NCBI GenBank assembly: GCA_963745025.1
Contig: CAVUWD010000016.1
Coordinates: 832,001-896,000 of the forward strand
DNA from: an uncultured delta proteobacterium
GTDB taxonomy: Bacteria > Desulfobacterota > Binatia > JACPRU01
Length of the DNA: 64,000 bases
Direction: 5' to 3'
A program made the position numbers and the translations under genes. The notes beneath the pieces were generated by a model that saw only the letters and a program-made list of their open reading frames with translations, ran no database searches and had not been told where the DNA came from. Below are positions 3,361 through 35,690 of this stretch, one piece after another (the stretch's first letter is position 1; the number at the start of each line of letters is the position of its first letter).

Positions 3361-3419
3361 AGCCTCAATATCTGACGCTGCCCAAACACGAGACGCCCCG
3401 TTTCTACGGGGCGCATAAG
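3361..3419 (+). repeat. Dispersed hairpin-ended repeat, copy A (partial)
   Basis: AGCCTCAATATCTGACGCTGCCCAAACACGAGACGCCCCGTTTCTACGGGGCGCATAAG, also found at 6223, 10567 and (inverted) 20947. Confidence 0.9.
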
Positions 3420-3472
3420 CGGGCCTCCTTGGCGTGCCCCTCGCGTCGAATCACTTCGGCGGCGTAGCGCCT

Positions 3473-4177
3473 CTAGCCGATTTCCGAAGCACGTACAAGA
3501 ACGCGGATCCTCGCTCTGGGCTCAGCGCGGCCCGGCGAACGCGGGATTCGCCAGTGCACCATGTAGATCTGGTTCTCGACCGCGCGCGCCTGGGCACAAT
3601 GCCGGACGCGCCAGAAGCCGTGCTCCGTCAGCGTGAACGATGGGCAGAGGACGACGGCGACGCCCTGCTCCGCGTAGCTCGAGGCACACTCGGGGATCTC
3701 CGCCTCGTAGCAGATGGCGACGCCCACGCGCGCGGAGCCGAGACCGACCGCCTCGAGCCGCTCCCCCTCCCCGCTTCCCCACGCGGACTCCGCCGGGAAG
3801 ATGTGGGTCTTCGCGTGCGTGTGAACCCGCCCGCCCGACTCGAAAAGGTGCGCGACGTTGAGCGTCTGGCCACCCTGGCGCACCAGGTGGGAGCCGGCGA
3901 GGATCGCCTGGCCGCGTGAGTGCGCCTCGGCGGCGAAGAGCGCGCGGTACTCTTCGGTGAAGGTATCGATGCGCGGGAGGTCCGCGAGCGGAGCCTCGCG
4001 CCATCCCGGGAGGGCCGTGAAAAGCTCGATCGTGAAGAGCTCCGGGAAGACCGCGAGGTCCGCGTCACGGGCGCCGTCGAGAAGCGTGCGGACACGGGCG
4101 GCGAAGTCCGCGAAGCCCCGGACGGGCCGGAGCGCGAGCTGACAGGCGGCGACCGAGAGCGGGCGAGCCATCGGCAA
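3473..4177 (-). pseudogene. Carbon-nitrogen hydrolase (nitrilase-family) protein, C-terminally truncated
   Basis: Catalytic motifs VFPE, HAKTHIF, VAICYEAE and AQARAVENQIY; similarity stops just after IYMVH. Confidence 0.8.
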
Positions 4178-4399
4178 ACCTCGGTGGATCTAAAGCACGG
4201 CCCGCCCCGCGGCGACAAGCGGGGACGTTCATAACCTTCGTGACCATCGTTGACCCGAGGCTCGCGCCCGAGATCGAACCGCGATCACGTTTTCGCAAGA
4301 CCTCCCGGTGCACGACCCCGATGGCAGGGTCTGGGTACAGCGGCGATGGCGCGGGGCGCGTCAGTCCGCGAAGGCGGCGCGCGCGGGCCGCTCTGGGCT

Positions 4400-5926
4400 T
4401 CACTCGATCAGGACGGGGCTCGTTCCCAGCTGCAGGGTCACCTCTTGATTCAGGACCGCTTTCGTCTCTGGGCGAAACGCGCTTGCGTACTCCGTGATCT
4501 GAGCCCCGGACTCGTAAGGTGGGATCAGCTCCGTCACGGTCACCTGCGGAGCGTCACCCACGTTGATCGTCACACTTCGACTCTCACCCACGTCGTCGAA
4601 ATAGTCCCACCACGCGACATGAACGGCCGCACCTGACCCGGTCTTCGTGAACTTGTATATGTATACCTGATCCGCCCCCTCGCTCACCTTCTGGATACTC
4701 TCCCAGTCCGAGTCGCCCAGCCTCTCGACGAGCTTCTTTAAGGTATAGTACGAGAGTTTCTTGATCCCGTCGCCAGGGTCAGGGCAGGGAAGCTCCACGG
4801 CGGGGTCACACGCGTCCGCGGTCGGGATTCCGTTGTACATCAACCCGTTATGGCTGAACGTCCCGTGGATCTCCGTATCCTCCCGAATGGTGCCCCACAT
4901 GATGCGCTGGACGTCATTGGCCACATGATACACCGCACGCTTGATCAGGTACTCCGCCTGCTGCGCTTCGGTTTGGAGTTCGTCGAGCCCCTTCAGCCCA
5001 CCCGCCAACTTGTCCGTCCCCGAATGCGTCGCGCCTGCCTTGATAATGATTGGTTTGCCCGAGAAGCCGTTGTTCGCCAGCAGCTGCCGGTAGAACTCCA
5101 CGGTCTTGCCTCTCACGTTCTCGCGGTACAACTGGTACGTGTTGAAGTTGTGGTAGTCGAAGAAATCAAACCGACCATCCGCCCGATGCTGCTTCAAGAA
5201 GAACAACGCCTGGTTGTAGTAGGCCTCGTACACCGCGTCGGGACAGATCGATCCCGGACCGCCGAACACGATCTTGGCGTCCGGGTCGAGCCCTTTGATG
5301 ACGTCGTGCGACACCTCCAGAAGCCGCGCGTACTCGCGCCCGGCCTGCTTCGCGCACGCCTTATCAATGACGTCGCCACACCAGGCCAGCAGCTGCAGAT
5401 CGGAATGCTCGTTGTCTATGCTCCAGTATCGGACCTTCCAGTCCGGGCGCCTCGAATTGACGTAGGTGACCAGGGCCTTCAGGTAGTCCTCGTACGCTAG
5501 GTACGAAGAGGGGCCATCGGGCACGTACTTACCCGCTGCCGAACCGCTCTGGACGAGCCTACCATCGGTGAACTTGTAACGAGACTCCACGTTGATGACG
5601 AACCAGGCGTTCTGCGCCTCATCCGTGTATGCGCGGAGCTTGTCCTCGATCGGCCTGAAGTCGTACGAGACCTTCTTGCCGCTCTTGTTCTCGATGACGC
5701 GCCGCGACAGGTGATCCGAGATCCACGTCGCGCCCAGATCGCTGAGCCAAGCGCTCGTGCTCGCGCCGCTGCTGTCGAACGCGTCGTTGATGCCCCAGGG
5801 AACGTCGAGGGGCGGTGAGGGTTGGGACGCGGATGATCTCGGAAGCCAGAGGAGGGCAATCACAAGGCTGAGTACCATCCGTCGCGCGAGCGGGGACACG
5901 CCGATTGCACGGTGAGTCATGGACAC
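4400..5926 (-). CDS. Secreted glycoside hydrolase clan GH-A-like TIM-barrel protein
   Basis: Signal peptide; WSIDNE, IKGLDPDAKIVFGG, FDFFDYH, KPIII and KKLSYYTLKKL motifs; C-terminal beta domain ending LGTSPVLIE. Confidence 0.7.
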   Translation of the reverse strand: MSMTHRAIGVSPLARRMVLSLVIALLWLPRSSASQPSPPLDVPWGINDAFDSSGASTSAWLSDLGATWISDHLSRRVIENKSGKKVSYDFRPIEDKLRAYTDEAQNAWFVINVESRYKFTDGRLVQSGSAAGKYVPDGPSSYLAYEDYLKALVTYVNSRRPDWKVRYWSIDNEHSDLQLLAWCGDVIDKACAKQAGREYARLLEVSHDVIKGLDPDAKIVFGGPGSICPDAVYEAYYNQALFFLKQHRADGRFDFFDYHNFNTYQLYRENVRGKTVEFYRQLLANNGFSGKPIIIKAGATHSGTDKLAGGLKGLDELQTEAQQAEYLIKRAVYHVANDVQRIMWGTIREDTEIHGTFSHNGLMYNGIPTADACDPAVELPCPDPGDGIKKLSYYTLKKLVERLGDSDWESIQKVSEGADQVYIYKFTKTGSGAAVHVAWWDYFDDVGESRSVTINVGDAPQVTVTELIPPYESGAQITEYASAFRPETKAVLNQEVTLQLGTSPVLIE

Positions 5927-6222
5927 ACCTCCCCTGCCGGAGCCAGGTGATCATCGCGCCGCCCATGGCGGGCTCCACGAAGCCTGAACCCGCGGCCTGC
6001 GGATTGAGTCATGCTCGTGCTAATCACACTGCACTGCGAAGAGGAAGAGAAAAACGCCGGCGCCTCCGAACCTCGATCACGTTCGAGGCGAAAATGCCCC
6101 GACCAAGGTTAGGACCGTCCCCCTCTCCCCCGGCGCTGGCGCGTGCTTGGCGCGGCTGGCTGGACAGTGGTCGAGTCCCGGATGGAGCTCGCGCGAACTC
6201 GAGCCTCGTCTCGTCCGAGGAG

Positions 6223-6314
6223 TAGCTGGGATAAGCGGCCGACTGACGTAAGGCCTCGACTATCTGGGCACGCTGCCCAAACACGAGACGCCCCGTTTCT
6301 ACGGGGCGCATAAG
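6223..6314 (+). repeat. Dispersed hairpin-ended repeat, copy B
   Basis: TAGCTGGGATAAGCGGCCGACTGACGTAAGGCCTC..ACGCTGCCCAAACACGAGACGCCCCGTTTCTACGGGGCGCATAAG. Confidence 0.9.
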
Positions 6315-6679
6315 GCACCTGTCCACCAAAATCTTGGCGCCGGGCGGGCGAATCGCCCCCCGCCCGCGTCGGGCCGCCCGGCTCAGCGGGCGGCCCCCCC
6401 GGGTGCGGACGCTGCCTGCGAGCCAGAGTGCAGAGAATATCCCGCCCCTCGCCTGAGACTCCGTGCCGCTCGGCCGTATCTCGAATCGACTGCCGCGAAG
6501 TCGAAGAATCCCGTCGCCTCGCGGCGGCGGCCGCACGGGCGCAGGGCGCGGACCGTTGCGGCCGCGATACCGAGGTGAGAGAGGATCTTCCTGATCACCG
6601 CCGGATCCTCGATGGTGGCGAGTAGACGCAGCCGCCCGCCGCACTCGGGGCAGGCAAGAACGTCGATCTCGAAGGTCCG
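6315..6679 (-). mobile_element. IS91-like (HUH) transposase C-terminal remnant plus downstream end region
   Basis: RTFEIDVLACPECGGRLRLLATIEDPAVIRKILSHLG, typical of IS91/ISCR-type transposase tails. Confidence 0.8.
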
Positions 6680-7153
6680 CTAGCAGGCGCGGCGGGCATG
6701 GTCTTCGTGCGCGATCGGTGCGCCGAAGATCGCCATGATGCCGTCGCCGGTAAACTTGTCGACCGTGCCTTCGAAACGATGCACACCATCGGAGAGAATC
6801 TGGAAGAAGCGGTCCATGATCCGATACCAGTCCTCCGGGTCCACCTTCTCGCCGAGATCCATCGAGCCCTTCACGTCAGCGAAGAGCACGGTCACCTGCT
6901 TGCGCTCGCCTTCGAGGGCGGCGCGGGAGGTGAGGATCTTTTCGGCGAGGTGACGAGGAGTATAGCTTCGGGGCTCAGGCGCAGAAGGTCGCGACCGGGT
7001 TTCCGCTGCCGGCTTTCCGCACCGATTGCAGAACTTTACGCTAGGTGGGAGCTCAGCTCCGCACTGCCCACAGACGAGGGATAAGCGCGCTCCGCACTCG
7101 AAGCAGAATCTCGAATCGGCAGGATTCTCGAACGCGCAACTCGGGCACCGCAT
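6680..7153 (-). pseudogene. Double zinc-ribbon + adenylate/guanylate cyclase protein, N-terminal fragment
   Basis: CPSC..FCFECG..CGQC..FCNRCG, ERKQVTVLFADVKGS and GTVDKFTGDGIMAIFGAP; cut at the IS91-like remnant. Confidence 0.9.
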
Positions 7154-7419
7154 CGATCAGTCTTCTCAGGACATCTGGGCGAAGGGACCGTAACCCCGGG
7201 GGCCGGCGACGCGCAAGCGACCACGACGGGGAAACCGGATAACCAGCAGACGCAGACGACGAAGGTCTCCGCGACGATCCGGCTCGGAGTGCAGAGTTAG
7301 ACCGTAAGGGGCACCTCGTCGCGGCCGGCAGCGGCTAGTCAACAGTGCGCATCGTCCAGAGCCGCCCGGGTGGCCGTGAATCCATCGCCTGCTTCCGTTA
7401 CGAAGCGGCGGTGGAAGAA

Positions 7420-7682
7420 GCGACGACCGGCCAGCCGTTCTCGAGGCACGCGACCGTGGCAGTCATCCCTGCTAAGCCGGCACCGACGACTGCGATATGT
7501 TGTCCTTCGCTCAGCCTGCCGGTTCGCAAGAGCGCCCAGACGAGGTTCAAGGCGCGTAGCTGCTGCGAGGCGAAGGTCACCTGGCGCGCGAAGTTGCCAA
7601 GGGCGAAGACGTTGCGCAGCGCTGGCACTTCCATCGAACGAATCAGCTTCTGCGATACTGCGCTCGGAGCGGAAGTAGCCAT
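7420..7682 (-). pseudogene. FAD/NAD-binding oxidoreductase N-terminal fragment
   Basis: QVTFASQQLRALNLVWAL..HIAVVGAGLAGMTA (GxGxxG); the ORF ends shortly after. Confidence 0.6.
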
Positions 7683-8059
7683 CAGTTTCGGCTGCCGAAC
7701 GTCGCGACGTCCCGTCTCCGGCAATGGCCGATGCCCGGCGAGAAGGCGAGGGCGCGCGTCGTGTACGAGCTACCTACGACCTGGCTCGAGTGTCCGATAC
7801 CGAACGCCCTACCAGGCGGGAAACTCTCCGTCCGACGGGTGGCCGTGAAGGGCTCGAAAGCTACATAACGATCGATCTCGGACGCTACGGATTCCTCCTT
7901 ACCGCCCGCTTTTACGGTGATCGTGCGCTGGCGCAGCCTCACGGAGAACTACCGCATGCGACCGCGCCCGGAGGAGATCCTGGCGCAGATTCGCGACTGA
8001 GGTGAGGCTGAGCTTTCCTCACGCGCACGAGGTCGATGATCCCGGCGGATTGCGTGCGC

Positions 8060-10366
8060 TCAGATGTCGATCGGAGGAGGCGCGAAAGCCCGCACGAGCG
8101 GCAGTGCGCCGTCGAAGCGCTCGAGTTGCACCAGCGCGTGCTGACCGGAGCAGCCCTGCGACAGGCGGGAGGCGCCGCGGTCACGTGTCAGAACGTTTGG
8201 GTTGCCGTGCACGCACATGGCGATCTCGGCGCTGCTGTCGTCGGGATCGAACCAGGCGCCGGTCGAGAGCTGTACCACGCCGGGACGCACGTCGGTCGAG
8301 ACCACCGCTCCCGCCAGGCAGCTGCCGCGGTCGTTGAAGAGCCGCACGACGTCACCATCGACGATGTGGCGCGCCTCGGCATCGGTCGGATGCAGGCGCA
8401 CCGGTTCCCGCCCGCGCACCTTGGCCGCCTGGCTGTAGGGCCCGAGGTCGAGCTGGCCGTGCAGGCGCGTTGCCGGGTTATTGGCCACCAGGGCCAGCGG
8501 GAAGCGCGCCGCTCGCGGCGAGCCGAGCCATTCATCGCTCTCCATCCAGGTCGGATGTCCGGGGCAGTCGTCGTAGGCGAAGCTGGCGACGCGTTCGGAG
8601 AAGAGCTCGATCTTGCCACTGGGCGTGCGCAGCGGATGGGCCTCGGGATCGGCGCGAAAGGTGTCGAAGAGCACGCGCTCGGCTTCGAGATCGGGCATCT
8701 CGAGCGACCCGGCGGCCCAGAAGTCCTCGAAGGAGGGCGCCTCGATGCCGGCTTTGCGGAGCGCGCCTTGGAGCTCGGTGTAGAGGTGTTGCAACCAGGC
8801 CCGCTCGTCGCGGCCCTCGGTGAAGGCGTCCGCCACGCCGAGTCGCTCGGCCAATCCCTCGAGGATGTCGTGATCGCTCAACGCTCCGCCGACGCGAGGG
8901 ACGGACTGATGCATGGCGATGATGCGGGCATCGGCGCGACCCGAGCCGATGTCGTTGCGCTCGAAGGTAGTGGTGGCGGGGAAGACCAGATCGGCATGGC
9001 GGGCCATCGGCGTCCAGTACGGCTCGTGCACGATGATGGTCTCGGGCCGCGCCAGAGCGCGGCGCAGGCGGTTGAGATCCTGGTGGTGATGAAACGGGTT
9101 GCCGCCGGCCCAGTACACCAACCGGATGTCGGGATAGGTGTGGGGCGCGCCGTCGTAGTCGAAGGACTCGCCCGGCTGGAGCAGGAGGTCGGCGATGCGC
9201 GCCACGGGGATGAACGAGCGCACCGGGTTCTTCCCTGCGGGAACCGACGGCAGCGCCACCGACGGACTCGCGCTGCCGAGGTCGCCCATCGAGCCGTAGC
9301 CGTGCCCGAAGCCGCCGCCGGGCAGACCGATCTGACCCAGGAGCGCCGCCAGAGCGATGGCGGCCCACACCGGCTGCTCGCCGTGCTCGGCCCGTTGGAG
9401 CGAGTACGACACCGTGATCAGGGTGCGAGACGCCGCCATCCGCCGCGCCAGGGCTCGCAGGTCGTCGGCCGCGATCCCCGAGCGTGCCTCGGCCCATTCG
9501 GGGCTCTTCGCCACGCCGTCGGGCTCGCCGAGGACGTAGGCGATGAAGTGATTCGCGCCGTGGCAGTAGCGCTCGAGGAACTGCGCATCGTGCAGACCTT
9601 CGGTGATGAGCACGTGCGCGAGCCCCAGCATCACCGCGACATCGCTCAGAGGAACGAGTGGGTACCATCGCGCCTCGGCCTCGGCGACGACGTCGTCGCG
9701 CAGTGGGCTGAAGACCGCGATCTCCATCCCGCGGCGGCGCCCGTCGGCGAGATGGTGGCGGATGCCGTGCCGCGCCATGCCGCCGGGCGCGACGAAGGTA
9801 TTCTTGATCGGGATGCCGCCGAAGGCGACGAGGAGCTCGGTGTGTCGGGCCACCATCGTCCACGACGTGGCCTGGCGGAACACCACCCCGGCACTGCCGA
9901 CCACGTGCGGCAGCAACACGATCGAGGCACCGATGCTGTAGCTGTTGCGCGACGAGGTGAAGCCACCGATGAGATTGAGGAAGCGGTGCAGTTGGCGCTG
10001 GCTGTGGTGGAAAAGCCCGGCGCTGGCCCAGCCGTAGGAGCCGGCGAAGATCGCCTCGTTGCCGTGGGCGGAGATGACGCGCTCGAGCTCGCCTGCGGCG
10101 CGATCCCAGGCCTCGTCCCAGGAGAGCGTGACGAAGGAGTCGTTGCCTCGGTCGCGCGAGGAACCAGGGCCGCGTTCGAGCCAGCCGCGTCGCGCCACCG
10201 GCTGCTCGATGCGGGCGGCGTGCCGCACGCTGCCGGGCAGGTTGCGCAGCAGCGGGGATGGGTCGGGATCGTGCAGCGGATGCACGGCGGCGACCTCGCC
10301 GTCGTCGACGACGACGGTGAAACCTCCCCAGTGCGAGCTGTGCGTCAGTGTCTGTGACAAGGGCAA
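8060..10366 (-). CDS. Molybdopterin-dependent oxidoreductase, biotin/methionine sulfoxide reductase (BisC/TorA/DMSOR family), no export signal
   Basis: SSHWG, IFAGSYGWASAG, SYSIGA, LQRAEHGEQP, YWAGGNPFHHHQD, RLHGQLD and STGAWFDP motifs; 768 aa. Confidence 0.92.
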   Translation of the reverse strand: MPLSQTLTHSSHWGGFTVVVDDGEVAAVHPLHDPDPSPLLRNLPGSVRHAARIEQPVARRGWLERGPGSSRDRGNDSFVTLSWDEAWDRAAGELERVISAHGNEAIFAGSYGWASAGLFHHSQRQLHRFLNLIGGFTSSRNSYSIGASIVLLPHVVGSAGVVFRQATSWTMVARHTELLVAFGGIPIKNTFVAPGGMARHGIRHHLADGRRRGMEIAVFSPLRDDVVAEAEARWYPLVPLSDVAVMLGLAHVLITEGLHDAQFLERYCHGANHFIAYVLGEPDGVAKSPEWAEARSGIAADDLRALARRMAASRTLITVSYSLQRAEHGEQPVWAAIALAALLGQIGLPGGGFGHGYGSMGDLGSASPSVALPSVPAGKNPVRSFIPVARIADLLLQPGESFDYDGAPHTYPDIRLVYWAGGNPFHHHQDLNRLRRALARPETIIVHEPYWTPMARHADLVFPATTTFERNDIGSGRADARIIAMHQSVPRVGGALSDHDILEGLAERLGVADAFTEGRDERAWLQHLYTELQGALRKAGIEAPSFEDFWAAGSLEMPDLEAERVLFDTFRADPEAHPLRTPSGKIELFSERVASFAYDDCPGHPTWMESDEWLGSPRAARFPLALVANNPATRLHGQLDLGPYSQAAKVRGREPVRLHPTDAEARHIVDGDVVRLFNDRGSCLAGAVVSTDVRPGVVQLSTGAWFDPDDSSAEIAMCVHGNPNVLTRDRGASRLSQGCSGQHALVQLERFDGALPLVRAFAPPPIDI

Positions 10367-10566
10367 GGTCCTCTCGCCGACTTCATACGGCAGAACCCGA
10401 TGACAGTCACGCTTGGACAGGAGCGAAATCAGCTATGCGGGGCTCGCTCGCTTGCGACTCACGACTCTTCGATCTCGATCGCTTCTTCGGGGCAGTTGGC
10501 CCGTGCCAGACGGGCCTTGGACTCGAGCCCCGCCGGCACGGTTTCGTCTGGAATGAGGCAGTGGCT

Positions 10567-10655
10567 GGGGATAGCTGGGATAAGCGGCCGACTGACGTAA
10601 AGCCTCAATATCCGACGCTGCCCAAACACGAGACGCCCCGTTTCTACGGGCCCAT
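10567..10655 (+). repeat. Dispersed hairpin-ended repeat, copy C
   Basis: GGGGATAGCTGGGATAAGCGGCCGACTGACGTAAAGCCTCAATATCCGACGCTGCCCAAACACGAGACGCCCCGTTTCTACGGGCCCAT. Confidence 0.9.
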
Positions 10656-10700
10656 TTCGGGCCCACGAAAAGCCAAGGGGCCGCATCCTGAGGATGCAAC

Positions 10701-10743
10701 CCCCCGGGGCCGGACTCGAACCAGCGACCATCCGGTTAACAGC
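10701..10743 (-). other. tRNA-Asn(GTT) 3'-half remnant, probable att site of a genomic island
   Basis: Minus strand GCTGTTAACCGGATGGTCGCTGGTTCGAGTCCGGCCCCGGGGG has the anticodon loop, T-arm and acceptor 3' strand but no D-arm. An arm-like direct repeat ACGGACA x2 lies at ~10862-10879. Confidence 0.8.
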
Positions 10744-10900
10744 GGCTTCCCGGTCGAGACTCGCCCCAACTAGCTCCGACTCACTTCAAGAAACATGGTC
10801 GCTTTCCGTTGCTTTCACGCGAGAGCTAGGGCCGCGTTTTGGAGTGAGTCGGGAAGAGTTCACGGACAGAAGACGGACACGTCCCCTCTCCTCACTCGTG

Positions 10901-11407
10901 TCAGGTGCTAGGTCGAGCGGGCTGCTTCTCCAGCACGACCACCGGAATCTCGCGCCTAGTCTTCTTCTGGTAGTCCCGATAGGGAGGAGCCATCTGCGCC
11001 ATCTGGTCCCAGAGTTGCTCACGCTCTTTGCCCGTCGCCACACGGGCGCGGACGGTGAAGTGCTCCCTCGCGACTTGTACCTCGGCCGTTGGGTTGGCAA
11101 GCAGGTTCAGATACCAACTCGATTGCGTATCGGCCCCGCCCTTGGACCCGATGATGACGTAGGCATCACCCGCCGTGCCATAAAACAGCGGCGACGTGCG
11201 CTTCTCGCCGGAGCGCCGCCCGATCGTCGTGAGCAACAGGCAGGGCACGAGGCCGGGGACGCCGGCGATCGTCGCATCAAACATATGCCCTTCGGCTCCT
11301 CCACTTTCGCGATAAACCCGCAGGTGCTCAGCAACCCAGTCCGGCGGTCCCTTGCCTGCCTTTAGGTCGCGATTCCCTTGATCGACGTCGAATTTACTCA
11401 TCATCAC
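10901..11407 (-). CDS. Deazaflavin (F420)-dependent nitroreductase family protein (Ddn-like)
   Basis: LLLTTIGRRSGEKRTSPL, IGSKGGA, WYLNLLANP and YRDYQKKTRREIPVVVL. Confidence 0.92.
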   Translation of the reverse strand: MMMSKFDVDQGNRDLKAGKGPPDWVAEHLRVYRESGGAEGHMFDATIAGVPGLVPCLLLTTIGRRSGEKRTSPLFYGTAGDAYVIIGSKGGADTQSSWYLNLLANPTAEVQVAREHFTVRARVATGKEREQLWDQMAQMAPPYRDYQKKTRREIPVVVLEKQPARPST

Positions 11408-11787
11408 TTCTTCCTCAATATCGCTCTGTGGTCTCGCTACTCGAGCGAGGTGTTACACCCTGGGTTTCGGTGGGCGCAACCGTTGTTTCTTAGCGGCCGA
11501 ATCCGACTTCTTCCTTCCCCGGTTTGCAACCGGAAGTGCCAGGTACCTAGGTCAGGCTTGGTGAGGCTTGGTGGGGTTCGGCTGGCCATCGTGGGCGATC
11601 GACCTTTTCCGCCGAGCCGCGGAAGCGCGCCGGCTGCCCAGCCTCGCCGGAGCCCTATAGCGCGCGCTTTGCTTGCCCCGTTTCGCGAGCAGAGATCTAC
11701 AACTGAGCGCAATCGGCGGGACGCAGGACCCGTGGAATCCACCACGATTCGTTGTAGTTCGTTGCAAGTCGCTGGCGATGGACGGCT

Positions 11788-11816
11788 CTTAAAATCCCCT
11801 CGGGGGGTAACTCCGT
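11788..11816 (+). other. tRNA-Leu(TAA)-like remnant (anticodon loop + variable arm), probable att site, cut by repeat copy E
   Basis: CTTAAAATCCCCTCGGGGGGTAACTCCGT resembles a Leu-TAA anticodon loop, stem and long variable arm; the T-arm is absent. Confidence 0.55.
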
Positions 11817-11915
11817 AGACAGGGGCGTCTCTAAAAACCGGAGTCTCGAAGGACGGGGGTAGCGTCTGATATCGCCGCGTTACGTCAACCAGGCCGCTTA
11901 TCCCGGCTATCCTCA
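11813..11915 (-). repeat. Dispersed repeat, divergent copy E
   Basis: CCGTAGACAGGGGCGTCTC..GGGTAGCGTCTGATAT..TTACGTCAACCAGGCCGCTTATCCCGGCTATCCTCA aligns to the reverse complement of copy C. Confidence 0.7.
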
Positions 11916-11919
11916 ACTG

Positions 11920-12340
11920 CCCTATCGTTGTCTGTCCAGAGTCGATCTTCGCGAGCTCCAAAGCATCCGCCTCGCTCGAGTGGATGTAGCGACCGTAGTG
12001 CTTCTTGAGCGTGCTCTCGGCGACGCCCGTTTGCTCTGAAACCCATGTCAGGTTCACACCCCTCGTCAGCGCCACGCTCACGTACGTGTCCTTCGTCGCG
12101 TAGAGGTCGCGAAGACGAAGCCCGAGCAAGCGCTGCGCGTCACAGAAGAACCGGTAAAAGTTGGCCTGGTTGATCGGCCCGCCGAGAGTATTTTTGAAGA
12201 GATACTCGTCGGCACTCGGGTGCAGCTGGACGAGCGGCTTCAGGATCTCGACATTGCGGGGGATCAGCCTTACCGTCCTCGCCGCCGATGGCGTCTTTGG
12301 CGCGTTCTCTTCGCCGAGCGAGCGCGATGTTTCGACCCTT
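11920..12340 (-). pseudogene. Tyrosine recombinase/phage integrase C-terminal fragment
   Basis: PKTPSAARTV, YLFKNTLGGPI, RDLYATKDTYVS (variant box II) and WVSEQTGVAESTLKKHYGRYI (catalytic Tyr). Confidence 0.8.
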
Positions 12341-12382
12341 AAGGAGCGGGCAACGGGTCCCGCCCGTTGTGAGAACCGGACC

Positions 12383-12859
12383 CTACGGGCTCGTGGGATC
12401 TCCGCGTGCTACCGCATCTTCGCCTGCTACCGCTGCCGCGCCGTCAGCGACGAAGGGCGACGTGAAGATTCCGGCAAAGTAGTTGTCGACCTCGGTCCCG
12501 CTGGAGAGGGCGTAATACACCGGATCCGCACGAACGCGTGTGAACTTCTTCCTGGCAAAACCGGTCTCGTCGGTCGTGATCGTACCGAGGTTGCTGGAGG
12601 GGCCCGCTTGACGGCAGCTCCCCGTCGAGATGACCTCGAAGACCTGCCACGTGCTGCTCGGCCTTCCGTGCGTGATCTTCACAATCACCTTTGTCGTACC
12701 CTTCTGGATCACCTTGCCCACCCTTGCGCCGGTGCAGGTGAGAGACCCCGTGTCGTCCACCAAAGGCTTTATCTCCCTCGCATCCGACGCCGGCACCCAG
12801 CTGAGAAGAGCCAGGCCGACAGCCGTGACTACCACGGCACTGGACCATTTGTTGCGCAT
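12383..12859 (-). CDS. Hypothetical secreted protein
   Basis: RBS GAGGAGGG, then signal peptide MRNKWSSAVVVTAVGLALLSWVPASDA. Confidence 0.6.
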   Translation of the reverse strand: MRNKWSSAVVVTAVGLALLSWVPASDAREIKPLVDDTGSLTCTGARVGKVIQKGTTKVIVKITHGRPSSTWQVFEVISTGSCRQAGPSSNLGTITTDETGFARKKFTRVRADPVYYALSSGTEVDNYFAGIFTSPFVADGAAAVAGEDAVARGDPTSP

Positions 12860-12964
12860 CGAATTCCCCTCCTCTTCAGAGAGTAGTTCCGGGAACCGGG
12901 TGACGTAGTCTATCATCATGTATCGAGCATACGTAGACGGCAAGTTTTTTCGCTTTGACGGCTA

Positions 12965-13190
12965 TCCTCGTCCACGCACGCCGCCGTCTTCGCTAGGACT
13001 GGCGGTAAGCGATAGGCATTGCAGGTCACCAACGTCCCTAAACGTAGCTTGGTGGTGACTGCAGACAACGCGGGCATCAGTGCCCAAACATCAAAGCAAT
13101 TCCGTCGCTCCGATTGAGCGTCCCACAACAAATGATCCGACGCCCACAGCGCGGTGAAGCCCAAACGCTCCGCTTCCTTGGCGAGGTGAC
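12965..13190 (-). pseudogene. LLM-class oxidoreductase internal fragment
   Basis: AKEAERLGFTALWASDH..ALSAVTTKLRLGTLVTCNAYRLPPVLAK. Confidence 0.85.
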
Positions 13191-13325
13191 CCCATAGCGT
13201 CGCTGCGGTAGAAAGGCGCCTCCTCGTTGACGAATGCCACGAAGCGCAGCGTACGTGCCGGATTCGCCTCCTTGAGCAGGCGTGCGAGCTCGAGCATGGC
13301 TGCGACCTCCGAGCCGTTGTCGTTC
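13190..13325 (-). pseudogene. M28 peptidase internal fragment
   Basis: DNGSEVAAMLELARLL..RTLRFVAFVNEEAPF..MGS. Confidence 0.8.
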
Positions 13326-13779
13326 GCTCCGCGACGCTTCTGACCACGGGCGTGGAGAAGAGCCAGATCGCCTCCGGCGGCCGGAGCGTCGGCATTTCGC
13401 AGTAGTACGTGTTCAACAACACCAGCCCTTCCACGCGCTCGGGGTGGGCCAGTGCTCAGTCGATGGCCGGCGGGCCCGAGGCGTCGTGCGCGACGAGGAC
13501 GACCGGCCCGAGCTTCAGTTGTGTGATGACGGCGTCGAGGTCGCCGACTTGATTGTCGGTGGTGTAAGGGTAACCGGGCGGTTTATCCGAATTGCCCCAC
13601 CCCAGAAAATCAAATGCCACGACCCGGCGCGGCGGCGAGAGGTGGGCGAGCAGACGATCGTAGAGGTGCAAGTTGTCCGGGAACCCGTGCATCACAACGA
13701 TCGTCGGCTCCGCCCCCGGGTAGTCTCGAACGTAGATCCGGTGTTGGTCCCGCCGTACAAAAGTCTCTTCGTAGACCAT
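13326..13779 (-). pseudogene. Alpha/beta hydrolase (haloalkane dehalogenase-like), N-terminal half with internal stop
   Basis: HGFPDNLHLY, FDFLGWGNSDKP and VAHDASGPPAID*ALAHPERV; truncated after TPVVRSVA. Confidence 0.85.
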
Positions 13780-13957
13780 CGTTCCCTTTGGAAGGAAAGT
13801 CACCGAACTATTGATCGAGCTGCGGGGGTCAAGCGGCGCTGCGATGGAGTCCGCATGCTCTCTGCCCCGTCCCTTGGATCCACGCTAGTGATCCAGTACA
13901 TCAATCGCCCAGCGGCTTCTCTTCGTCGTGCGAGCGTTCGCGGGCACGATGTGCGAT

Positions 13958-14340
13958 TCACAACCCGAGTTCCTTCGCCACCTGCTCGGCGCGGATCGGC
14001 GCGCCGATCTCCGTGAAGAGGCGATGCGCCTCGCGGAGCTCGCGCTGGCGGGTGGCGTCATCGCCGCTCAGCCGCGCGAGCTCGGCACGCTCGACGTGAA
14101 GGAACGGCTCGTAGCTCTTCGCGCCAGACATCTCGAGCCAGGCGTCGGCTTCGGCGAGCGCGACCTCGATCTCTCTCGTCGCCTGAAGGCCCTGGATCTC
14201 ACGGAGAGCGCGGATCCGGGTGAGCAGAGCCGAGAATTCCCAGAGTCGGGAGCCGAGCCGGCGGCCGACGGCGGTCGCTTCCGCTGCGAGAGCCAGGGCC
14301 CTTTCGCGATCGCCGAGACCGAGCTGCGCTGCCGCCATTC
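13958..14340 (-). pseudogene. Adenylate cyclase/AAA-TPR protein C-terminal fragment
   Basis: GAKSYEPFLHVERAELARLSGDDATRQRELREAHRLFTEIGAPIRAEQVAKEL; near-duplicate at 24768-24932. Confidence 0.75.
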
Positions 14341-14555
14341 GTTCGTCTCGGGCGGCGCTCACGGTCTCAGCGCGGAAGTGGCGGCGACGTTCACCCACGC
14401 GGTCGCGGCGGTGCTGGTGGCAAATGTACTCGAGGATCCCGAGCGGCAGATGGTCGAGGCGATCTGCAAGGCGCGGCGCGAAGGCCGATGTCTCCAGCCG
14501 CTCAATCCATCTATCCCCCCACAACGCCTGCCGATCGGCGTATAGTGAGGAAATC

Positions 14556-15416
14556 ATGCGCCAGGTATTGGCACTGGCTCTCATCTGCGTAGTGGTCACG
14601 GTCGCTACGGATGCGATCTCCCGCAGCAGTCTATCGCGCGCTCTATGGCCTCTGGTGGAGGCTCCGGCAGATGGCGCGGTCGTGGCCCTCCCTCTGACGA
14701 TTCGTTGGGAGGGGCCGCAGTAGCTGTACGTCACATTGATCGGTCGTGACGGCCGCGAAGATCTCGGGCTCAGGCAAAATCCGACCGAGATCGGCGTCGA
14801 GCATTTTCCGCGACCCGGTCAGTATCGGATCGAGCTGCGCTCGCCGTTCTTGGGACGATGGAGCGCCACGGAGCGGCGCTTTCTTGTGCCTTCATCTGCA
14901 ATGTCGCCTAACCTGCCGGCAACGAAGGAGGCGGTGGACAACCAGAACCAGCAAATCGAGGATCGGATTTCGGCCGCAAATCAGTCGCGGCGCCAGCAGG
15001 ACATCACAAACTCGGAGAATGCCGCCCTGTACGAAGAGAACGCCAATCTACGGGAAGAAAGCGCCAATTTGCGAGAGGAGAACCGCAACCTTGCCACGAG
15101 CCTCCAAGACTTGCGGAACCTTCAAACGCAAACAATCGCTCGGCTCGACGCGATCGAAGCGCAGCACAGCGAGCTGGAGCGCCAGTACCGCGAAGCGCTG
15201 GAGGAAAACCAGTCGCTCCGCGCCCGCATCGCAAGCATCCCCGATTGCACCACCTGGGGGTATGTGTCGTATCAGCGCGGCGTCCGGTTCGTGATGCTGG
15301 TCAGCGACAGCCGCGGTGGGGTCTTTCACGACCAGCTTCAATGCGAGGCGACCCGGCGCGTTGATCTGACCGCCGCCTCGCAGTGTATCTGTGTCGGCAG
15401 CCCATGGCAGCGCTGA
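14556..15416 (+). pseudogene. Secreted/membrane-anchored coiled-coil protein with one in-frame TAG at 14721
   Basis: RBS GAGG and hydrophobic N-terminus; the same frame continues after the TAG with heptad EENANLRE repeats and a Cys-containing C-terminus. Confidence 0.6.
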
Positions 15417-15742
15417 TGTCAGGGAACCGGGGTATTCCCGGAGGTTCTGATCCAACTGGAATTCGTGATCAGGTGTCCACGTCTGATGCGACGCTCACCA
15501 CGCTGATTATGGGAAAGCAAAAAAGGCGTCGAACGCCTCGGGCCGGAGGGGGCTCCCCATCCCGGCTCCAAACCCGGAGCCTTCCGTACGCGAGCTCACG
15601 GCCCTAGACGACGAGATAATGCCGAATCAGTCATCCCCTCACCCAGCCAAAAGAGCGTGGCGAGCAGAAAGTACGTGGCGGCCGCCAAAACGCGTGCAAC
15701 CCCAAGGAAGAGGGTCTGTTGGGAAGCAGTAGGAGGTGCGCC

Positions 15743-15907
15743 ATGACTCTCCAGGAACAGCAAAACGTCCAGTACAAGTGCCTGTTCTGTAAGGGAAAGT
15801 TCGGGAGCGCACAGGACCTGCGCGAGCACCCGTGCCAGGCGCGCCAGGGCGCGATGTCGGGACAGCGGCTGCAGAAGAAGGCGCCGCGTCGCGAGCAGAA
15901 GCACTGA
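15743..15907 (+). CDS. Small protein with a C2H2/C2HC-type zinc finger
   Basis: Strong RBS AGGAGG; YKCLFCKGKFGSAQDLREHPC fits Y-x-C-x2-C-x3-F-x5-L-x2-H. Confidence 0.6.
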   Translation: MTLQEQQNVQYKCLFCKGKFGSAQDLREHPCQARQGAMSGQRLQKKAPRREQKH

Positions 15908-16224
15908 GCCATCGGATTCAGCCGACGGAGTGGGCGAGCTCGGAGCTCAACGCATCGACCTCCCCAATGCGCTCGATCGCCACAGCGGCTCCCATGCTCG
16001 CTCCGATCACGGTGGCTCGAAAAGCGCCGAGCACCCGCACGGCGCTTTTCGCGGCCGCCAACACCGCGAAGGCTCTCGTCTGCGGTGATCGTGACGATCT
16101 CCCGTTCGACCGCAGCCAGCTGCTCCCGCGTGCAGGATCTGGTCGGCGAAGATCGGCATGAGGATTGCTCGAGGGTGCTCGGCGTGGCTATGGTCGAGCC
16201 TCCCAACGGACGGAGGAGGTCTAG

Positions 16225-16598
16225 ATGATCGGATACGTGACGCTCGGAACCAACGACCTCGCAGCGCGCGGCCAAGTTCTACGACGCGCTGCTCGCGCGA
16301 GCTCGGCGCCAAGCGCGCGATGGAGACTCGAGACCTTCATCGCCTGGGGCATCGGCGCCGAGCACGCCGATGGTCTCGGTGATCAAGCCGTTCGACGGCA
16401 AGCCCGCGACGGTCGGCAACGGCGTGATGGTCGCGCTCGCGGCGAGTCAGCAAGGCGCAGGTCGACGCGATCCACACGAAGGCGCTCGCGCTCGGCGGCA
16501 AGGACGAGGGCGCGCCCGGCCCGCGCGGCGACGGCTTCTACGCCGGCTACTTCCGCGACCTCGACGGCAACAAGCTGAACGCGTTCTTCATGGGCTAG
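16225..16598 (+). CDS. VOC/glyoxalase-family protein (several frameshifts)
   Basis: MIGYVTLGTNDL..KFYDALL..KPFDGKPATVGNGVMVAL..GGKDEGAPGPRGDGFYAGYFRDLDGNKL, spread across frames. Confidence 0.85.
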
Positions 16599-20852: not shown

Positions 20853-20946
20853 CTCTGCCGCACGGAATAGCTAGTACAACTGATTCGCACAACGGGAATC
20901 GGTCGAGGTCCGATATGTTTCGGAAGTCGTTTTAATCTCAACTGCC

Positions 20947-21028
20947 GCCCGTAGAAACGGGGGCGTCTCGTGTTTGGGCAGCGTCGGATATTGAGGCTTT
21001 AAGTTAACTCCGCCGCTTATCCCTGCTA
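20947..21028 (-). repeat. Dispersed hairpin-ended repeat, copy D (inverted)
   Basis: GCCCGTAGAAACGGGGGCGTCTCGTGTTTGGGCAGCGTCGGATATTGAGGCTTT..GCCGCTTATCCCTGCTA. Confidence 0.9.
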
Positions 21029-21126
21029 ACGCGGACCTTCGGCCGCAACCAAGGCGGGCTGGCGCCCGCGGGTGGTGCGCTTGATGTGAGCGGAGTGCTT
21101 CCACCGAGGTCGCCGGCTGGGCTTTC

Positions 21127-28331: not shown

Positions 28332-28767
28332 CACGGCTGCGATACACGAAACGGCGATCCTCACTCGCGAAGTCACTACGCGCTCCCCGCCGCTTGTCAC
28401 GACGATCCGCCAGCGAGGGGTGAAGGCATCGCTTTCGCGATCAGGAATCAAATCATCCCAGAGCGCAGGTATTTCGGACAAGCGCAGGACGTACTCTCGA
28501 TCGGCCATGGCTTCGCAGTACCTCCGTTCGGCTCCCCAATACCTCATAGCCAAATCGGGGAAGCTTCGCCTCCGATTTACAACCAGATGCGCCATACTCC
28601 CCTCGTCTTCGACGAGGCCCGCCGCTCCTCACCCGCCGGCCTAATCGCCGGACCTGAGCGGCATTTCGTCGCTTCAAATTGGACCCACAGGGTCCAATTC
28701 GGGACCTTTCGCCCCCGTTTACGACCGCCGCCGTCCTGAAAAGCCTTGATTTTTCGGAGCGACGGGC

Positions 28768-28861
28768 GGGTTCAAGTCCCCCTCCTCGCACTTCCAAGTC
28801 CTCGGTTTTACTCGACCGATCAGAGGCACCGGGGACAGATCCGCCGGACCGGGGACAGATC
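28768..28861 (+). other. tRNA-Leu 3'-end remnant (att core) with arm-type direct repeats
   Basis: GGGTTCAAGTCCCCCTCCTCGCAC (T-loop + acceptor 3' strand) at 28768-28791; ACCGGGGACAGATC x2 at 28828 and 28848. Confidence 0.7.
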
Positions 28862-34629: not shown

Positions 34630-34984
34630 AAGGTGTCCCCGTCATGGATGGCCAGATCGACCATCGGCTGGCCCCGCGCGGGATCCGAGTTGCGCTAGCG
34701 GAGGATCCTCAATCCGCACGGGTTGTCAAGGTGTCGAGACCACGAAACTGAACGTGCAGCTATGGGGCTTCAGGGCGATCAGGCGGCGCGGCTCGAGACC
34801 CAGCGCCGCGCGAGCCGGGGATATCGGGGCAAGGGCAGGGGTGAGCGGCTGATATAGAGGCGTTCGGTGAACTTTCCAGGCTTGTCGCGCCTACGGCCCG
34901 TGCTGCCTACGGGCGGAGCTCTGCATAGCCGGGGTAGGTCCAGATCCCGCGGTGGTGCGAAGAATCCTCACTCACCTTGGCACT

Positions 34985-35227
34985 TCAATTACAGCCTTGG
35001 TTATTTTCCGTCCTGACACAGGTTTTACCACCGGGGCTCTTATAGACGCCCTTCCCGTTTTTTGTCTTGGCTTCTCCTCCCCTACTCGACTTCCTCGTCG
35101 TGACCCCAGCATCGTTCCTCTCTGACGACACGTCGACATCAGTTCTGTCACCACGCGTCCTAACGCGCTCAGCGAACACGTTCGAAGAAAACATCATCAC
35201 CATCAGTATTATCACCGTAATTCGCAT
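34985..35227 (-). CDS. Small secreted hypothetical protein, copy 1
   Basis: RBS AAGGAGG; signal peptide ending SNVFA; two Cys; conserved in the duplicate. Confidence 0.7.
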   Translation of the reverse strand: MRITVIILMVMMFSSNVFAERVRTRGDRTDVDVSSERNDAGVTTRKSSRGGEAKTKNGKGVYKSPGGKTCVRTENNQGCN

Positions 35228-35432
35228 GACTACCTCCTTCTGTTGGGCGACGCACCGTGCTCAACCCCTTCTCAAATCGTCGGATCGCGGGACCGCGTCG
35301 ACGCAAACCCCGCTATTATGCCCGCACACCCGCACCGCGCAAGGCTTCCGCGTACCCATGCGAAAACCCGTATGGGGCGCGGCTTTCCGCGCATATCTTC
35401 GCAAACCCGTATGGGGCGCGGATTTTCGGTGC

Positions 35433-35553
35433 GGAGCAGACCGGCGTCGCGGCAACGACGTTGCTCAAGCGCTACGGCAAGTTCATTCACACGCTCGACG
35501 CGGACCGCGCCGAGCTTTCGAAGATCGACGGTGAAGGCGGTACAGATTGCCCA
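35433..35553 (+). pseudogene. Tyrosine integrase extreme C-terminal remnant
   Basis: EQTGVAATTLLKRYGKFIHTLDADRAELSKID parallels EQTGVAESTLKKHYGRYIH..LELAKID at ~11940-12040. Confidence 0.7.
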
Positions 35554-35638
35554 CGGTCTGCCCACGACGACGAGGGGGAAAACTCAACCGCTGAAGTGCG
35601 TGCCGCCGCCCGCTGCCCTCGACTCGATCACCCGCTTG

Positions 35639-35690
35639 TGCGCCCCGTCGAAACGGGCGTAGAGCGAGCGTGTCTGCGTCCGATATCAAC
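35639..35690 (-). repeat. Dispersed repeat, divergent copy F
   Basis: TGCGCCCCGTCGAAACGGGCGT..GCGTCCGATAT matches the hairpin end and the GCGTCGGATAT block of copies A-D. Confidence 0.55.

What the first reader, a model, noticed from the sequence alone, without database searches (positions are those of the whole stretch)
3361..35690. Six copies of an unannotated hairpin-ended repeat at rearrangement breakpoints: candidate recombination or transposition site
Seen: the ~90-bp unit GATAGCTGGGATAAGCGGCCGACTGACGTAAAGCCTCAATATCYGACGCTGCCCAAACACGAGACGCCCCGTTTCTACGGGGCGCAT occurs at 3361, 6223, 10567 (+) and 20947 (-), with diverged copies at 11813 and 35639 (-). It ends in a stem-loop (CGCCCCGT-TTCT-ACGGGGCG). 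Each copy is next to a broken or mobile feature: an amidase fragment and truncated nitrilase, an IS91-like tail, a tRNA-Asn att, an integrase tail plus tRNA-Leu att, the start of an SCFDR-type putative transposase, and a second integrase tail. It is not a CRISPR repeat or attC site and has no terminal inverted repeats. Inference: it is the end or crossover site of an undescribed element (HUH/rolling-circle or tyrosine-recombinase type) whose one-ended events shuffle neighbouring DNA.
Basis: partly seen in the sequence, partly recalled or inferred. Interest (0 to 1): 0.75.

Follow-up and report, generated by a model that had tools for sequence, protein, structure and literature searches.

The report
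Solo ends of an ISCR-like transposon
The repeat is the roughly 81-base "origin" end of a rolling-circle insertion sequence of the IS91/ISCR family, left mostly as short solo copies that mark joints between DNA blocks in genomic islands; it is a new example of a known kind of mobile DNA.

Summary
The repeat is real. Four close copies and one diverged copy lie in the window, and the sixth (35639) is weak. BLAST finds 36 copies in the 5.6-Mb assembly, and a family profile finds 58. The unit has sharp ends. Its left end (GGATAGC...) follows a conserved GA. Its right end is ...CGTTTCTACGG in 20 full-length copies (81 nt) or runs on through GGCGCATAAG in 8.

Four long copies are followed, on the other strand about 140 nt away, by the C-terminal tail of an IS91/ISCR-type Y2 HUH transposase. 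In other genomes of the class, intact transposase genes with this tail are followed by the same motif order, at the same distance and in the same orientation (nhmmer E 4.5e-11 to 5.5e-3 before any iteration).

So the unit is the oriIS-side end of an ISCR-like IS91-family element. It has no terminal inverted repeats and no target duplication, and a short fixed target abuts it. Its size matches the 82 bp reported as sufficient for IS91.

Most copies are probably miniature right-end derivatives, as shown for IS801. The exact cut at position 81 and the one-sided homology of the flanks remain unexplained. No intact transposase gene was found in this genome.

The parts
3361..3420 (+). Left-truncated long-form copy (unit positions about 33-93) with the complete GC-rich hairpin. 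It joins an amidase C-terminal fragment (3021-3416, -) to the region downstream of a CN_hydrolase ORF (3473-4177, -).
   Evidence: HMM E 4.6e-12
6221..6314 (+). Long-form copy (oriIS-side end) with the complete hairpin and a small internal variant.
   Evidence: HMM E 4.8e-18
6494..6676 (-). Remnant of the C-terminal tail (about 60 aa) of an IS91/ISCR-type Y2 transposase. It reads toward the unit. A stop codon separates it from the same-frame zinc-ribbon/adenylate-cyclase N-terminal fragment upstream (ORF 6680-7153, -).
   Evidence: 85% to the C17 tail, E 2.2e-25; C17 counterpart hits ISCR_clade_Ia positions 450-507 of 509
10567..10649 (+). Complete short-form copy (81-nt core 10569-10649). The right end ...CTACGG is joined to unrelated DNA. 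Here the left flank is GG instead of the usual GA.
   Evidence: HMM E 1.7e-24
10700..10743 (-). 3' half of a tRNA-Asn (an att-type partial duplicate), 50 nt from the short-form copy. It is context, not part of the unit.
   Evidence: (no full tRNA)
11813..11914 (-). Diverged copy with an internal insertion. Its left end follows TGA at the end of an open frame that looks like an integrase C-terminus (by eye only).
   Evidence: HMM E 6.7e-15; Pfam found nothing in that ORF
20943..21030 (-). Short-form variant copy in inverted orientation relative to the copies at 3361-10649.
   Evidence: I1, I2; HMM E 5.9e-21
35631..35730 (-). Weak, second-subtype copy. It has the same motif order by eye (GGATAGC..GATATCGGACGC..palindrome..GGCGCACAAG).
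   Evidence: reading; two other genome copies share its right part. Not found by BLAST or by the HMM at E<=0.01.
28766..28791 (+). Direct repeat (25 of 26 nt) of the 3' end of tRNA-Leu(GAG), which lies 8 kb upstream of the window. Together they delimit a 36.7-kb island that holds the five significant window copies (3361 to 21030).

Best explanation
Its first base (GGATAGC...) is the outer tip of the element, and a conserved GA abuts it.

Most likely mechanism (inferred):
1. A transposase supplied in trans nicks between the GA and the tip and peels off this strand.
2. If the process ends early at the GC-rich stem-loop about 81 nt in, an 81-nt miniature element results. It inserts next to another GA without duplicating its target.
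3. If the process reads on, it carries neighbouring DNA along (one-ended transposition).
4. The many identical copies then also serve as substrates for homologous recombination.

Together these steps would build islands made of unrelated DNA blocks joined at the unit. What is shown is the identity of the unit as an IS91/ISCR-family end, its sharp termini, its target preference and the lack of target duplication. What is inferred is premature termination at position 81, mobilisation in trans and the origin of the arrays.
For: (1) Linkage in this genome. Four long-form copies (C16_838220 = window 6223, C6_522588, C17_53930, C11_263170) are followed about 140 nt away, on the other strand, by the tail ...EIDVLACPECGGRLRLLATIEDPAVIRKILSHLG...FDFGSD*.

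(2) The tail belongs to IS91/ISCR transposases. As a query it hits 84 of 301 genomes of the class. Of 9 tail-bearing ORFs from other genomes, 7 carry Y2_Tnp and 2 also carry Zn_Tnp_IS91. Of 4 such ORFs scanned with NCBIfam, all 4 score best to ISCR_clade_Ia (E 4e-56 to 1e-97, below its strict cut-off) and also hit transpos_IS91. The G000 tail ORF hits ISCR_clade_Ia positions 450-507 of 509 at E 8.7e-9. One intact ORF is 35% identical over 96% of its length to plasmid proteins annotated 'IS91 family transposase'.

(3) The unit is the conserved end downstream of those genes. I built an HMM only from G000 copies (29 distinct full-length sequences). I searched it against 81,413 bases of loci from other genomes. 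Before any iteration it hit L068 (4.5e-11), L079 (1.3e-6), L077 (2e-4) and L072/L087 (5.5e-3). Each hit lay within about 250 nt downstream of the transposase stop and antisense to the gene. After two iterations 13 hits reached E<=0.01, in 12 locus ids (L072 and L087 are one place).

(4) Family hallmarks.
- No inverted termini.
- No target duplication in 28 copies listed.
- In 28 distinct left flanks, G at -2 in 27 and A at -1 in 23, against 33% G and 17% A in the genome.
- A perfect 8-bp GC hairpin plus a second, imperfect pairing region.

(5) Literature.
- The final 82 bp of the IS91 right end are sufficient. A tetranucleotide target abuts oriIS, there is no target duplication, and there are two subterminal palindromes (PMC13181058, passages read).
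- IS801 yields 229-, 360- and 679-nt right-end miniature fragments by one-ended transposition (PMC3189936, abstract and passages).
- The oriIS side of ISCR1 is where the variable DNA lies (PMC6218425, passages).

(6) Discrete right-end fragment classes. 20 full-length copies end at position 81, each with a different right flank. Fragments made of tail plus end, about 330-400 nt and starting near ...FEIDVL, recur in G000 and in G034 and G154.
Against: - No intact Y2 transposase gene was found in this assembly. There is one unrelated Y2_Tnp fragment and tail remnants. The genome is a MAG, 92.65% complete, and two contigs end in the unit, so an intact copy may simply be unassembled.
- The cut at position 81 lies inside the 3' arm of the hairpin and is preceded by ACGG, not by the GA seen at the tip. 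Termination there is an assumption.
- A simple 81-nt insertion predicts flanks that are contiguous in an empty site. In the 5 loci compared with relatives, at most one side was homologous. It was the position-81 side at the GST-like gene and at G001 C21. It was the tip side at the 195-nt and 510-nt modules. Neither side adjoined the unit at C15.
- Folding z-scores of the short form are not significant.
- The terminal 19-mer's likeness to one annotated plasmid ISCR end (5 edits, by eye) is not beyond chance. The best match in that locus lay elsewhere, and 19 of 150 shuffles did as well.
- No DNA match in the plasmid collection.
Confidence: 0.78

Rival explanations
1. Same identity (ISCR-like oriIS end), but the solo copies are inert scars. 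Full elements were repeatedly cut back by deletion, or exchanged by homologous recombination between copies. The 81-nt form spread by recombination and duplication of island segments, not by its own transposition.
For: - The flanks are never both homologous to one place in relatives.
- Small modules (195 nt, 510 nt) occur in G001 without the unit and in other contexts.
- No intact transposase was found.
- The IS801 study concluded that most genomic IS801 fragments reflect reorganisations rather than one-ended transposition (PMC3189936, abstract).
Against: - 20 full-length copies share exactly the same inner end, each with a different right flank.
- 28 distinct left flanks carry the GA target signature. 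Random deletion or general recombination would not produce that pattern.
- Many copies are 100% identical over 81 nt, which points to recent copying from one source.
Confidence: 0.13
2. The unit is a recombination site for a tyrosine recombinase, either integron-like (attC or cassette array) or the att core of integrative elements. Cassettes would be inserted by site-specific crossover within the palindrome.
For: - Arrays keep one orientation and lie in tRNA-linked islands.
- Two identical units in G006 flank a 491-nt low-GC one-gene cassette.
- The palindrome has 7-8-bp arms around a 4-6-nt centre.
- A small tyrosine recombinase gene lies upstream of the tail remnant in C11 and C17.
Against: - No integron integrase: all TIGR02249 matches fall far below its cut-off.
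- The ends of the unit are not complementary, so there is no R''/R' pairing.
- Most copies keep only half of the palindrome.
- No reciprocal half-site junctions were found.
- Integrases are not consistently near the copies.
- The same sequence is explained as the end of the transposase-bearing elements in other genomes.
Confidence: 0.04
3. The unit is an ordinary REP-like or other MITE-type intergenic repeat, or a structured small RNA or regulatory element, unrelated to IS91.
For: - High copy number and a hairpin.
- Some copies lie between intact genes.
- Two Y1 (RAYT/IS200-like) transposase genes exist in the genome.
Against: - No Rfam match at gathering scores over the window, and only one chance-level hit (E 0.63) near a long copy.
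- The Y1 genes (C13:188500, C11:419866) are not near any copy.
- No consistent ORF relation.
- The promoter scan found none in the long form.
- The profile of the unit finds the ends of IS91/ISCR-type elements in other genomes.
Confidence: 0.03

Closest known systems
oriIS (right) end of IS91-family elements (IS91, IS801, IS1294)
   Same: It lies downstream of a Y2 HUH transposase gene. It has no inverted termini and no target duplication, and a short fixed target abuts the tip. It carries subterminal palindromes. The functional size reported for IS91 is 82 bp, against 81 nt here (PMC13181058 passages).
   Different: The sequence is unrelated at the DNA level to the named elements. The target signature is GA (5'-TC on the transposase strand), not CTTG, GTTC or GTCC. 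No intact transposase was found in this genome. Activity is untested.
ISCR elements (IS91-related 'common regions')
   Same: The relatives' transposases score best to NCBIfam ISCR_clade_Ia. Variable DNA abuts a precise oriIS boundary, as described for ISCR1 (PMC6218425 passages).
   Different: The scores are far below the model's cut-off, so these are distant relatives. The host is an uncultured soil or sediment lineage, not clinical gamma-proteobacteria. There is no link to class 1 integrons or resistance genes. An outward promoter like ISCR1's POUT was not supported by the scans.
IS801 miniature sequences (229, 360 and 679-nt right-end fragments from one-ended transposition)
   Same: The copies share the right terminus and run inward without gaps to a few discrete inner ends, here position 81, about 93 and about 330-400 nt (PMC3189936).
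   Different: The main class here is much shorter (81 nt) and far more numerous than any full copy. The inner end is not marked by a tetranucleotide resembling the target. Mobility is inferred, not trapped.
Helitrons (eukaryotic rolling-circle transposons)
   Same: HUH rolling-circle logic, a hairpin near one end, capture of gene fragments, and copies that share only a terminal segment (general knowledge; PMC4778049 abstract seen in a listing only).
   Different: A different enzyme architecture (Rep-helicase). In Helitrons the hairpin marks the 3' terminator end, whereas here the conserved segment is the initiation end. These are bacterial elements.
Integron attC arrays / CALINs
   Same: Same-orientation arrays of a conserved 80-130-nt site separating unrelated genes. 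One neat single-gene cassette is seen in G006.
   Different: No IntI. No R''-L''/L'-R' symmetry. Spacings of 0.6-23 kb holding several genes in both orientations.

Membership tests
IS91 family (including ISCR group) | Encodes a Y2 HUH transposase (Zn_Tnp_IS91 + Y2_Tnp) | tested here: inconclusive
   In G000 only C-terminal tails remain beside 4 long copies, plus one unlinked Y2_Tnp fragment. In other genomes the tail-bearing ORFs carry Y2_Tnp (7 of 9) and Zn_Tnp_IS91 (2 of 9). Their best NCBIfam hit is ISCR_clade_Ia, with transpos_IS91 also hit.
IS91 family (including ISCR group) | The conserved end lies downstream of the transposase gene (oriIS side) | tested here: met
   Unit-HMM hits lie within about 250 nt downstream of the stop and antisense to the gene. 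This holds for 4 places (5 locus ids) before iteration; after two iterations there were 13 hits in 12 locus ids. The arrangement is the same for the 4 long copies in G000.
IS91 family (including ISCR group) | No terminal inverted repeats; two different ends | tested here: met
   The two ends of the unit are not complementary. No left-end counterpart was found in 6 loci of relatives.
IS91 family (including ISCR group) | No target-site duplication; a short specific target abuts the oriIS tip | tested here: met
   No direct repeats flank the 28 copies listed. In 28 distinct left flanks, G at -2 in 27 and A at -1 in 23. The motif differs from the published CTTG, GTTC and GTCC.
IS91 family (including ISCR group) | oriIS of about 80 bp with subterminal palindrome(s) | tested here: inconclusive
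   The 81-nt core matches the published 82 bp. Long copies have a perfect 8-bp GC hairpin. The second pairing region is imperfect, and short-form folds score z = 0.9 to -0.2. No covariation count was made.
IS91 family (including ISCR group) | Rolling-circle transposition from oriIS, with one-ended events | not testable with these tools
   Only indirect evidence: discrete right-end-anchored fragment classes. The contigs laid from four public runs showed no informative joint.
Integron (attC sites with IntI) | An integron integrase gene | tested here: not met
   17 TIGR02249 matches, best 73.9 bits against a cut-off of 265; none passes.
Integron (attC sites with IntI) | An imperfect palindrome pairing the two ends of the site (R''/R', L''/L') | tested here: not met
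   The first and last 20 nt are not complementary. The predicted folds pair only internal segments.
REP/RAYT or IS200/IS605-derived palindromic elements | A linked Y1 HUH transposase and short palindromic units | tested here: not met
   There are two Y1_Tnp genes (C13, C11:419866), neither near any copy. The unit is 81-93 nt with one strong hairpin at one end only.
Known RNA families (Rfam 15) | A match at the gathering score | tested here: not met
   0 matches in the window. One chance-level match (E 0.63) in 6100-6800.

The most novel reading that the evidence does not exclude
The 81-nt units would be ori-only miniature elements that keep exactly the minimal functional oriIS. They would act as portable start sites for rolling-circle capture. 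With a transposase in trans, each unit would peel off whatever DNA lies beside it as a circle of unit plus cargo. That circle would re-insert preferentially at the nick site of another unit. The same-orientation arrays in tRNA-linked islands would then be an HUH-driven gene-capture platform, analogous to an integron.
Probability: 0.18. Interest if true: 0.7.

Novelty: new member of a known kind. Interest (0 to 1): 0.4.

Why it matters
The finding gives a concrete identity to a repeat that breaks this assembly and marks the joints of its genomic islands. It also extends the ISCR-like branch of the IS91 family to an uncultured soil or sediment lineage. There the element survives almost only as solo origin ends, about 20 full-length 81-nt copies and 36 BLAST copies in all. 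ISCR transposition has not been shown experimentally (PMC6218425, passage). A natural family of minimal origin ends with many independent junctions would be useful material for testing where these enzymes cut and how they pick up neighbouring DNA. For annotation, the profile of this end flags island joints and decayed IS91/ISCR elements that protein searches miss.

Tried and rejected
Ideas tested and dropped:
- Coding repeat. No frame is consistently open or tied to flanking ORFs.
- A test of ORF continuity across the unit had no power. Random joins gave ORFs as long as true contiguous DNA.
- A GC3-based call of cut versus intact flanking genes was too noisy to count.
- A second motif (ACACTAACGTGAAG) seemed to mark joints. 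It proved to belong to the 5' region of the cyclase paralogs, with 8 hits.
- tRNA-derived origin of the unit. No full tRNA lies beside any copy. One G001 copy follows a T-arm-like fragment, which I read as a neighbouring att remnant.
- Outward sigma-70 promoter in the long form. The scan found none in the window copy, and in L077 only a different site.
- Hairpins in the left flanks as a termination signal. The left flanks are, if anything, less structured than random GA-ending 50-mers.
- Left-end (terIS) counterpart of the palindrome. None was found in 6 loci of relatives. The copies in G154 are too diverged to define ends.
- DNA search of the plasmid collection with window 6215-6700 gave no match.
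- Likeness of the terminal 19-mer to the end of an annotated plasmid ISCR-type element was not beyond chance.
- Public runs. No RNA holder was listed, and the best DNA holder had 0.31 of the sampled words. The contigs laid from 4 runs were short and gave no joint at a unit. One contig ended exactly at position 81 with another copy's left flank, as expected at a repeat.
- Empty sites. 5 comparisons with relatives found none, and one search was uninformative.

Tools and sources not available or not used:
- I did not use the search for homologous proteins, the search of protein representatives, structure prediction, fold search, complex prediction or the protein atlas.
- I did not read supplementary files. 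The supplementary data of PMC13181058 on conserved terIS and oriIS features may bear on the cut at position 81.
- ISfinder and TnCentral could not be queried.

Full report
OBSERVATION

- The hairpin 20-mer occurs at 3394 and 6289 (exact) and at 10634 (2 mismatches). The 32-nt core occurs at 3362, 10602 (+) and 20966 (-). None is expected by chance.
- The repeat finder recovers the same copies and the diverged one at 11857-11909. I read all six places.
- ARAGORN finds no tRNA and Rfam no family in the window.

GENOME-WIDE PICTURE

The window is C16:832001-896000 of a 5.65-Mb, 20-contig MAG that is 92.65% complete with 7.6% contamination. BLAST with the unit finds 36 copies.

They cluster in one-orientation arrays:
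- C17: 8 of 8 on the minus strand.
- C4: 6 of 6.
- C6: 4 of 4.
- C11: 3 of 3.
- C16: five forward copies at 825897-842569, then two inverted.

Two contigs end inside the unit.

Aligning all copies with their flanks shows two sharp ends.
- The left end is GGATAGCTGGG..., preceded by GA.
- The right end is ...CGTTTCTACGG followed by unrelated DNA in 20 full-length copies (81 nt).
- In 8 copies the sequence continues GGCGCATAAG (long form, complete hairpin).
- 3 copies are cut on the left, 2 are cut on the right, 2 are diverged and 1 runs off a contig.

The same unit occurs in the sister species (7 matches) and in one genome of a second genus of the family (3 matches). BLAST finds it in none of 38 further relatives. 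An exact 24-mer occurs in the 185,579-species collection only in one MAG titled 'uncultured delta proteobacterium'.

WHAT IT IS NOT

- No reading frame is consistently open through it or tied to neighbouring ORFs.
- There is no integron integrase: the best TIGR02249 score is 73.9 bits against a cut-off of 265.
- The ends of the unit are not complementary. Folds of the short form are no better than shuffles.
- The genome's two Y1 transposase genes are far from any copy.

WHAT IT IS

Four long-form copies are followed, on the opposite strand and about 140 nt away, by a short open frame ending ...EIDVLACPECGGRLRLLATIEDPAVIRKILSHLG...FDFGSD*. That frame is fused to unrelated upstream sequence.

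With this 61-aa tail as query, 84 of 301 genomes of the class have a match. Roughly 40-45 of the 150 listed matches lie in open frames of 400 aa or more, by my count from the table (the tally includes the unpublished G182).

The tail-bearing ORFs look like IS91/ISCR transposases.
- Of nine such ORFs, seven carry Pfam Y2_Tnp and two also carry Zn_Tnp_IS91.
- In NCBIfam, all four ORFs scanned score best to 'ISCR element clade Ia family transposase' (E 4e-56 to 1e-97, well under its strict cut-off). They also hit 'IS91 family transposase'.
- The G000 tail ORF itself hits positions 450-507 of 509 of the ISCR model, at E 8.7e-9.
- One intact ORF is 35% identical over 96% of its length to plasmid proteins annotated 'IS91 family transposase'.

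Downstream of these genes the DNA shows the same order of motifs as the reverse complement of the unit. The order is a palindrome, then AACGTCCGATA, then TTACGTCAA, then GCTTTAT..C..GCTATCC.

A profile built only from G000 copies (29 distinct full-length sequences) was searched against 81 kb of those foreign loci. It hit L068 (E 4.5e-11), L079 (1.3e-6), L077 (2e-4) and L072/L087 (5.5e-3). Each hit lay within about 250 nt after the stop codon and antisense to the gene. Two iterations raised this to 13 hits in 12 locus ids. The iterated profile finds 58 places in G000 at E<=0.01. The window copy at 35639 is not among them.

The unit is therefore the end that lies downstream of an IS91/ISCR-type transposase gene. 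In this family that is the oriIS side.

FAMILY HALLMARKS

Among 28 distinct left flanks, the base at -2 is G in 27 and the base at -1 is A in 23. C is nearly excluded at -3. No direct repeat flanks the unit, and the left flanks are not enriched in hairpins.

The literature I read in passages states the following.
- IS91-family elements have two different ends, make no target duplication and insert next to a tetranucleotide.
- The final 82 bp of the IS91 right end suffice for transposition.
- oriIS carries one or two subterminal palindromes (PMC13181058).
- IS801 transposes 229-, 360- and 679-nt right-end 'miniature sequences' made by one-ended transposition (PMC3189936).
- For ISCR1 the variable DNA lies on the oriIS side (PMC6218425; see also PMC13393415).

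The 81-nt class here, and a second class of about 330-400 nt, fit that pattern of right-end-anchored fragments with a few discrete inner ends. The second class consists of tail plus end and starts near ...FEIDVL. It recurs in G000, G034 and G154.

CONTEXT

The copies lie in tRNA-linked islands and share the orientation of the tRNA gene that heads the island: Leu-GAG, Arg-TCG, Val-CAC, Glu/Gln and Leu-TAA. In the window, a 25-of-26-nt repeat of the tRNA-Leu 3' end at 28766-28791 closes a 36.7-kb island. That island contains the five significant window copies.

The genes between copies are ordinary and face both ways. They include an O-methyltransferase, an aldo-keto reductase, a glucose/sorbosone dehydrogenase, DUF6616 and DUF429. 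Some copies abut truncated genes. Examples are the amidase C-terminus, a GST-like gene cut at about codon 85 and cyclase fragments. Other copies sit between complete ORFs. In G006, two identical units 573 bp apart enclose a low-GC one-gene cassette with its own terminator.

MECHANISM, AND WHAT REMAINS OPEN

The sharp tip with a GA target and no duplication is what an IS91-type nick-and-join reaction would leave. The inner end at position 81 has 20 different partners. That marks it as a true terminus of a mobile unit rather than a shared deletion.

I therefore favour miniature elements made by early termination at the GC-rich stem-loop. They would be mobilised in trans, with read-through carrying neighbouring DNA. 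Three things do not fit neatly.
1. The cut lies inside the 3' arm of the hairpin and is not preceded by the target-like GA.
2. In five comparisons with relatives, at most one flank was homologous to a given place. It was the inner side at the GST-like gene and at a G001 copy. It was the tip side at two small modules, which also occur in G001 without the unit and in other contexts. Neither flank adjoined the unit at C15.
3. No intact transposase gene is in the assembly.

Later recombination between the many identical copies, or repeated insertion at the nick site of resident copies, could explain the second point and the one-way arrays. I have no direct evidence for either.

VERDICT

This is an uncatalogued, ISCR-like member of the IS91 family, seen almost only as solo origin ends. 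The kind of element, however, is known.

Noticed in passing
whole genome; window 6680-7153 (-), 22020-24701 (-), and about 14338-13964 and 24938-24777 (-) (C16:846338-845964, C16:856938-856777): A very large paralog family of zinc-ribbon / adenylate-cyclase / AAA_16 / TPR proteins (about 1170 aa). It has roughly 18 near-full-length copies, often in head-to-tail tandems, and about 50 fragments. Several fragments are cut exactly at a unit boundary or fused in frame to the transposase tail.
   Followed up: partly
L032 (G006:C23) 1010-1500: A 491-nt low-GC cassette between two identical units. It has its own ribosome-binding site, an ORF of about 90 aa rich in Lys/Ala repeats, and a terminator hairpin. 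It looks like foreign DNA captured as a unit-bounded module.
   Followed up: no
window 34949-35553 and 40785-41359: A direct repeat of about 600 bp (91-94% identical, families D1, D3, D6-D8) with copies 5.8 kb apart. It lies just beside the weak 35639 copy. Its nature was not examined.
   Followed up: no
G000 C17:43115-45476 and C11:263800-265500: A DnaN-like (sliding-clamp domains 2-3) ORF and a small tyrosine recombinase (191 aa; frameshifted in C11) sit directly upstream of the transposase tail remnant. The two loci are 94.7% identical over 2.1 kb. Possibly an integrase-bearing subtype of the element.
   Followed up: partly
G000 C17:55411-55607 and C17:61171-61680 versus G001 C9:401-595 and C2:479686-480194: Small modules (195 nt; 510 nt carrying a DUF6616 gene) start exactly at the tip of a unit in G000. 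In the sister species they occur at 90-94% identity without the unit and with different neighbours.
   Followed up: partly
G000 C8:81638, C11:387578, window 35631-35730: A second subtype of the end, sharing ...CTCTACGCCCG.TT.GACGGGGCGCACAAG, in three copies.
   Followed up: no
L092 (G050:C382) about 3329-3483 and 4306-4397: In an unrelated genome of the class, a second solo copy of that element's end lies inverted about 900 nt beyond the first (88% over 92 nt). Solo ends are therefore not peculiar to this MAG.
   Followed up: no
window 19207-19983 (-): The C-terminal part only of a DDE_Tnp_1_4 transposase (profile positions 298-431 of 435). This is another truncated mobile gene inside the island.
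   Followed up: no
L114 (G154:C3) within 336200-339300: The fetched stretch contains a run of several hundred T followed by A just downstream of the tail. I did not look into it.
   Followed up: no
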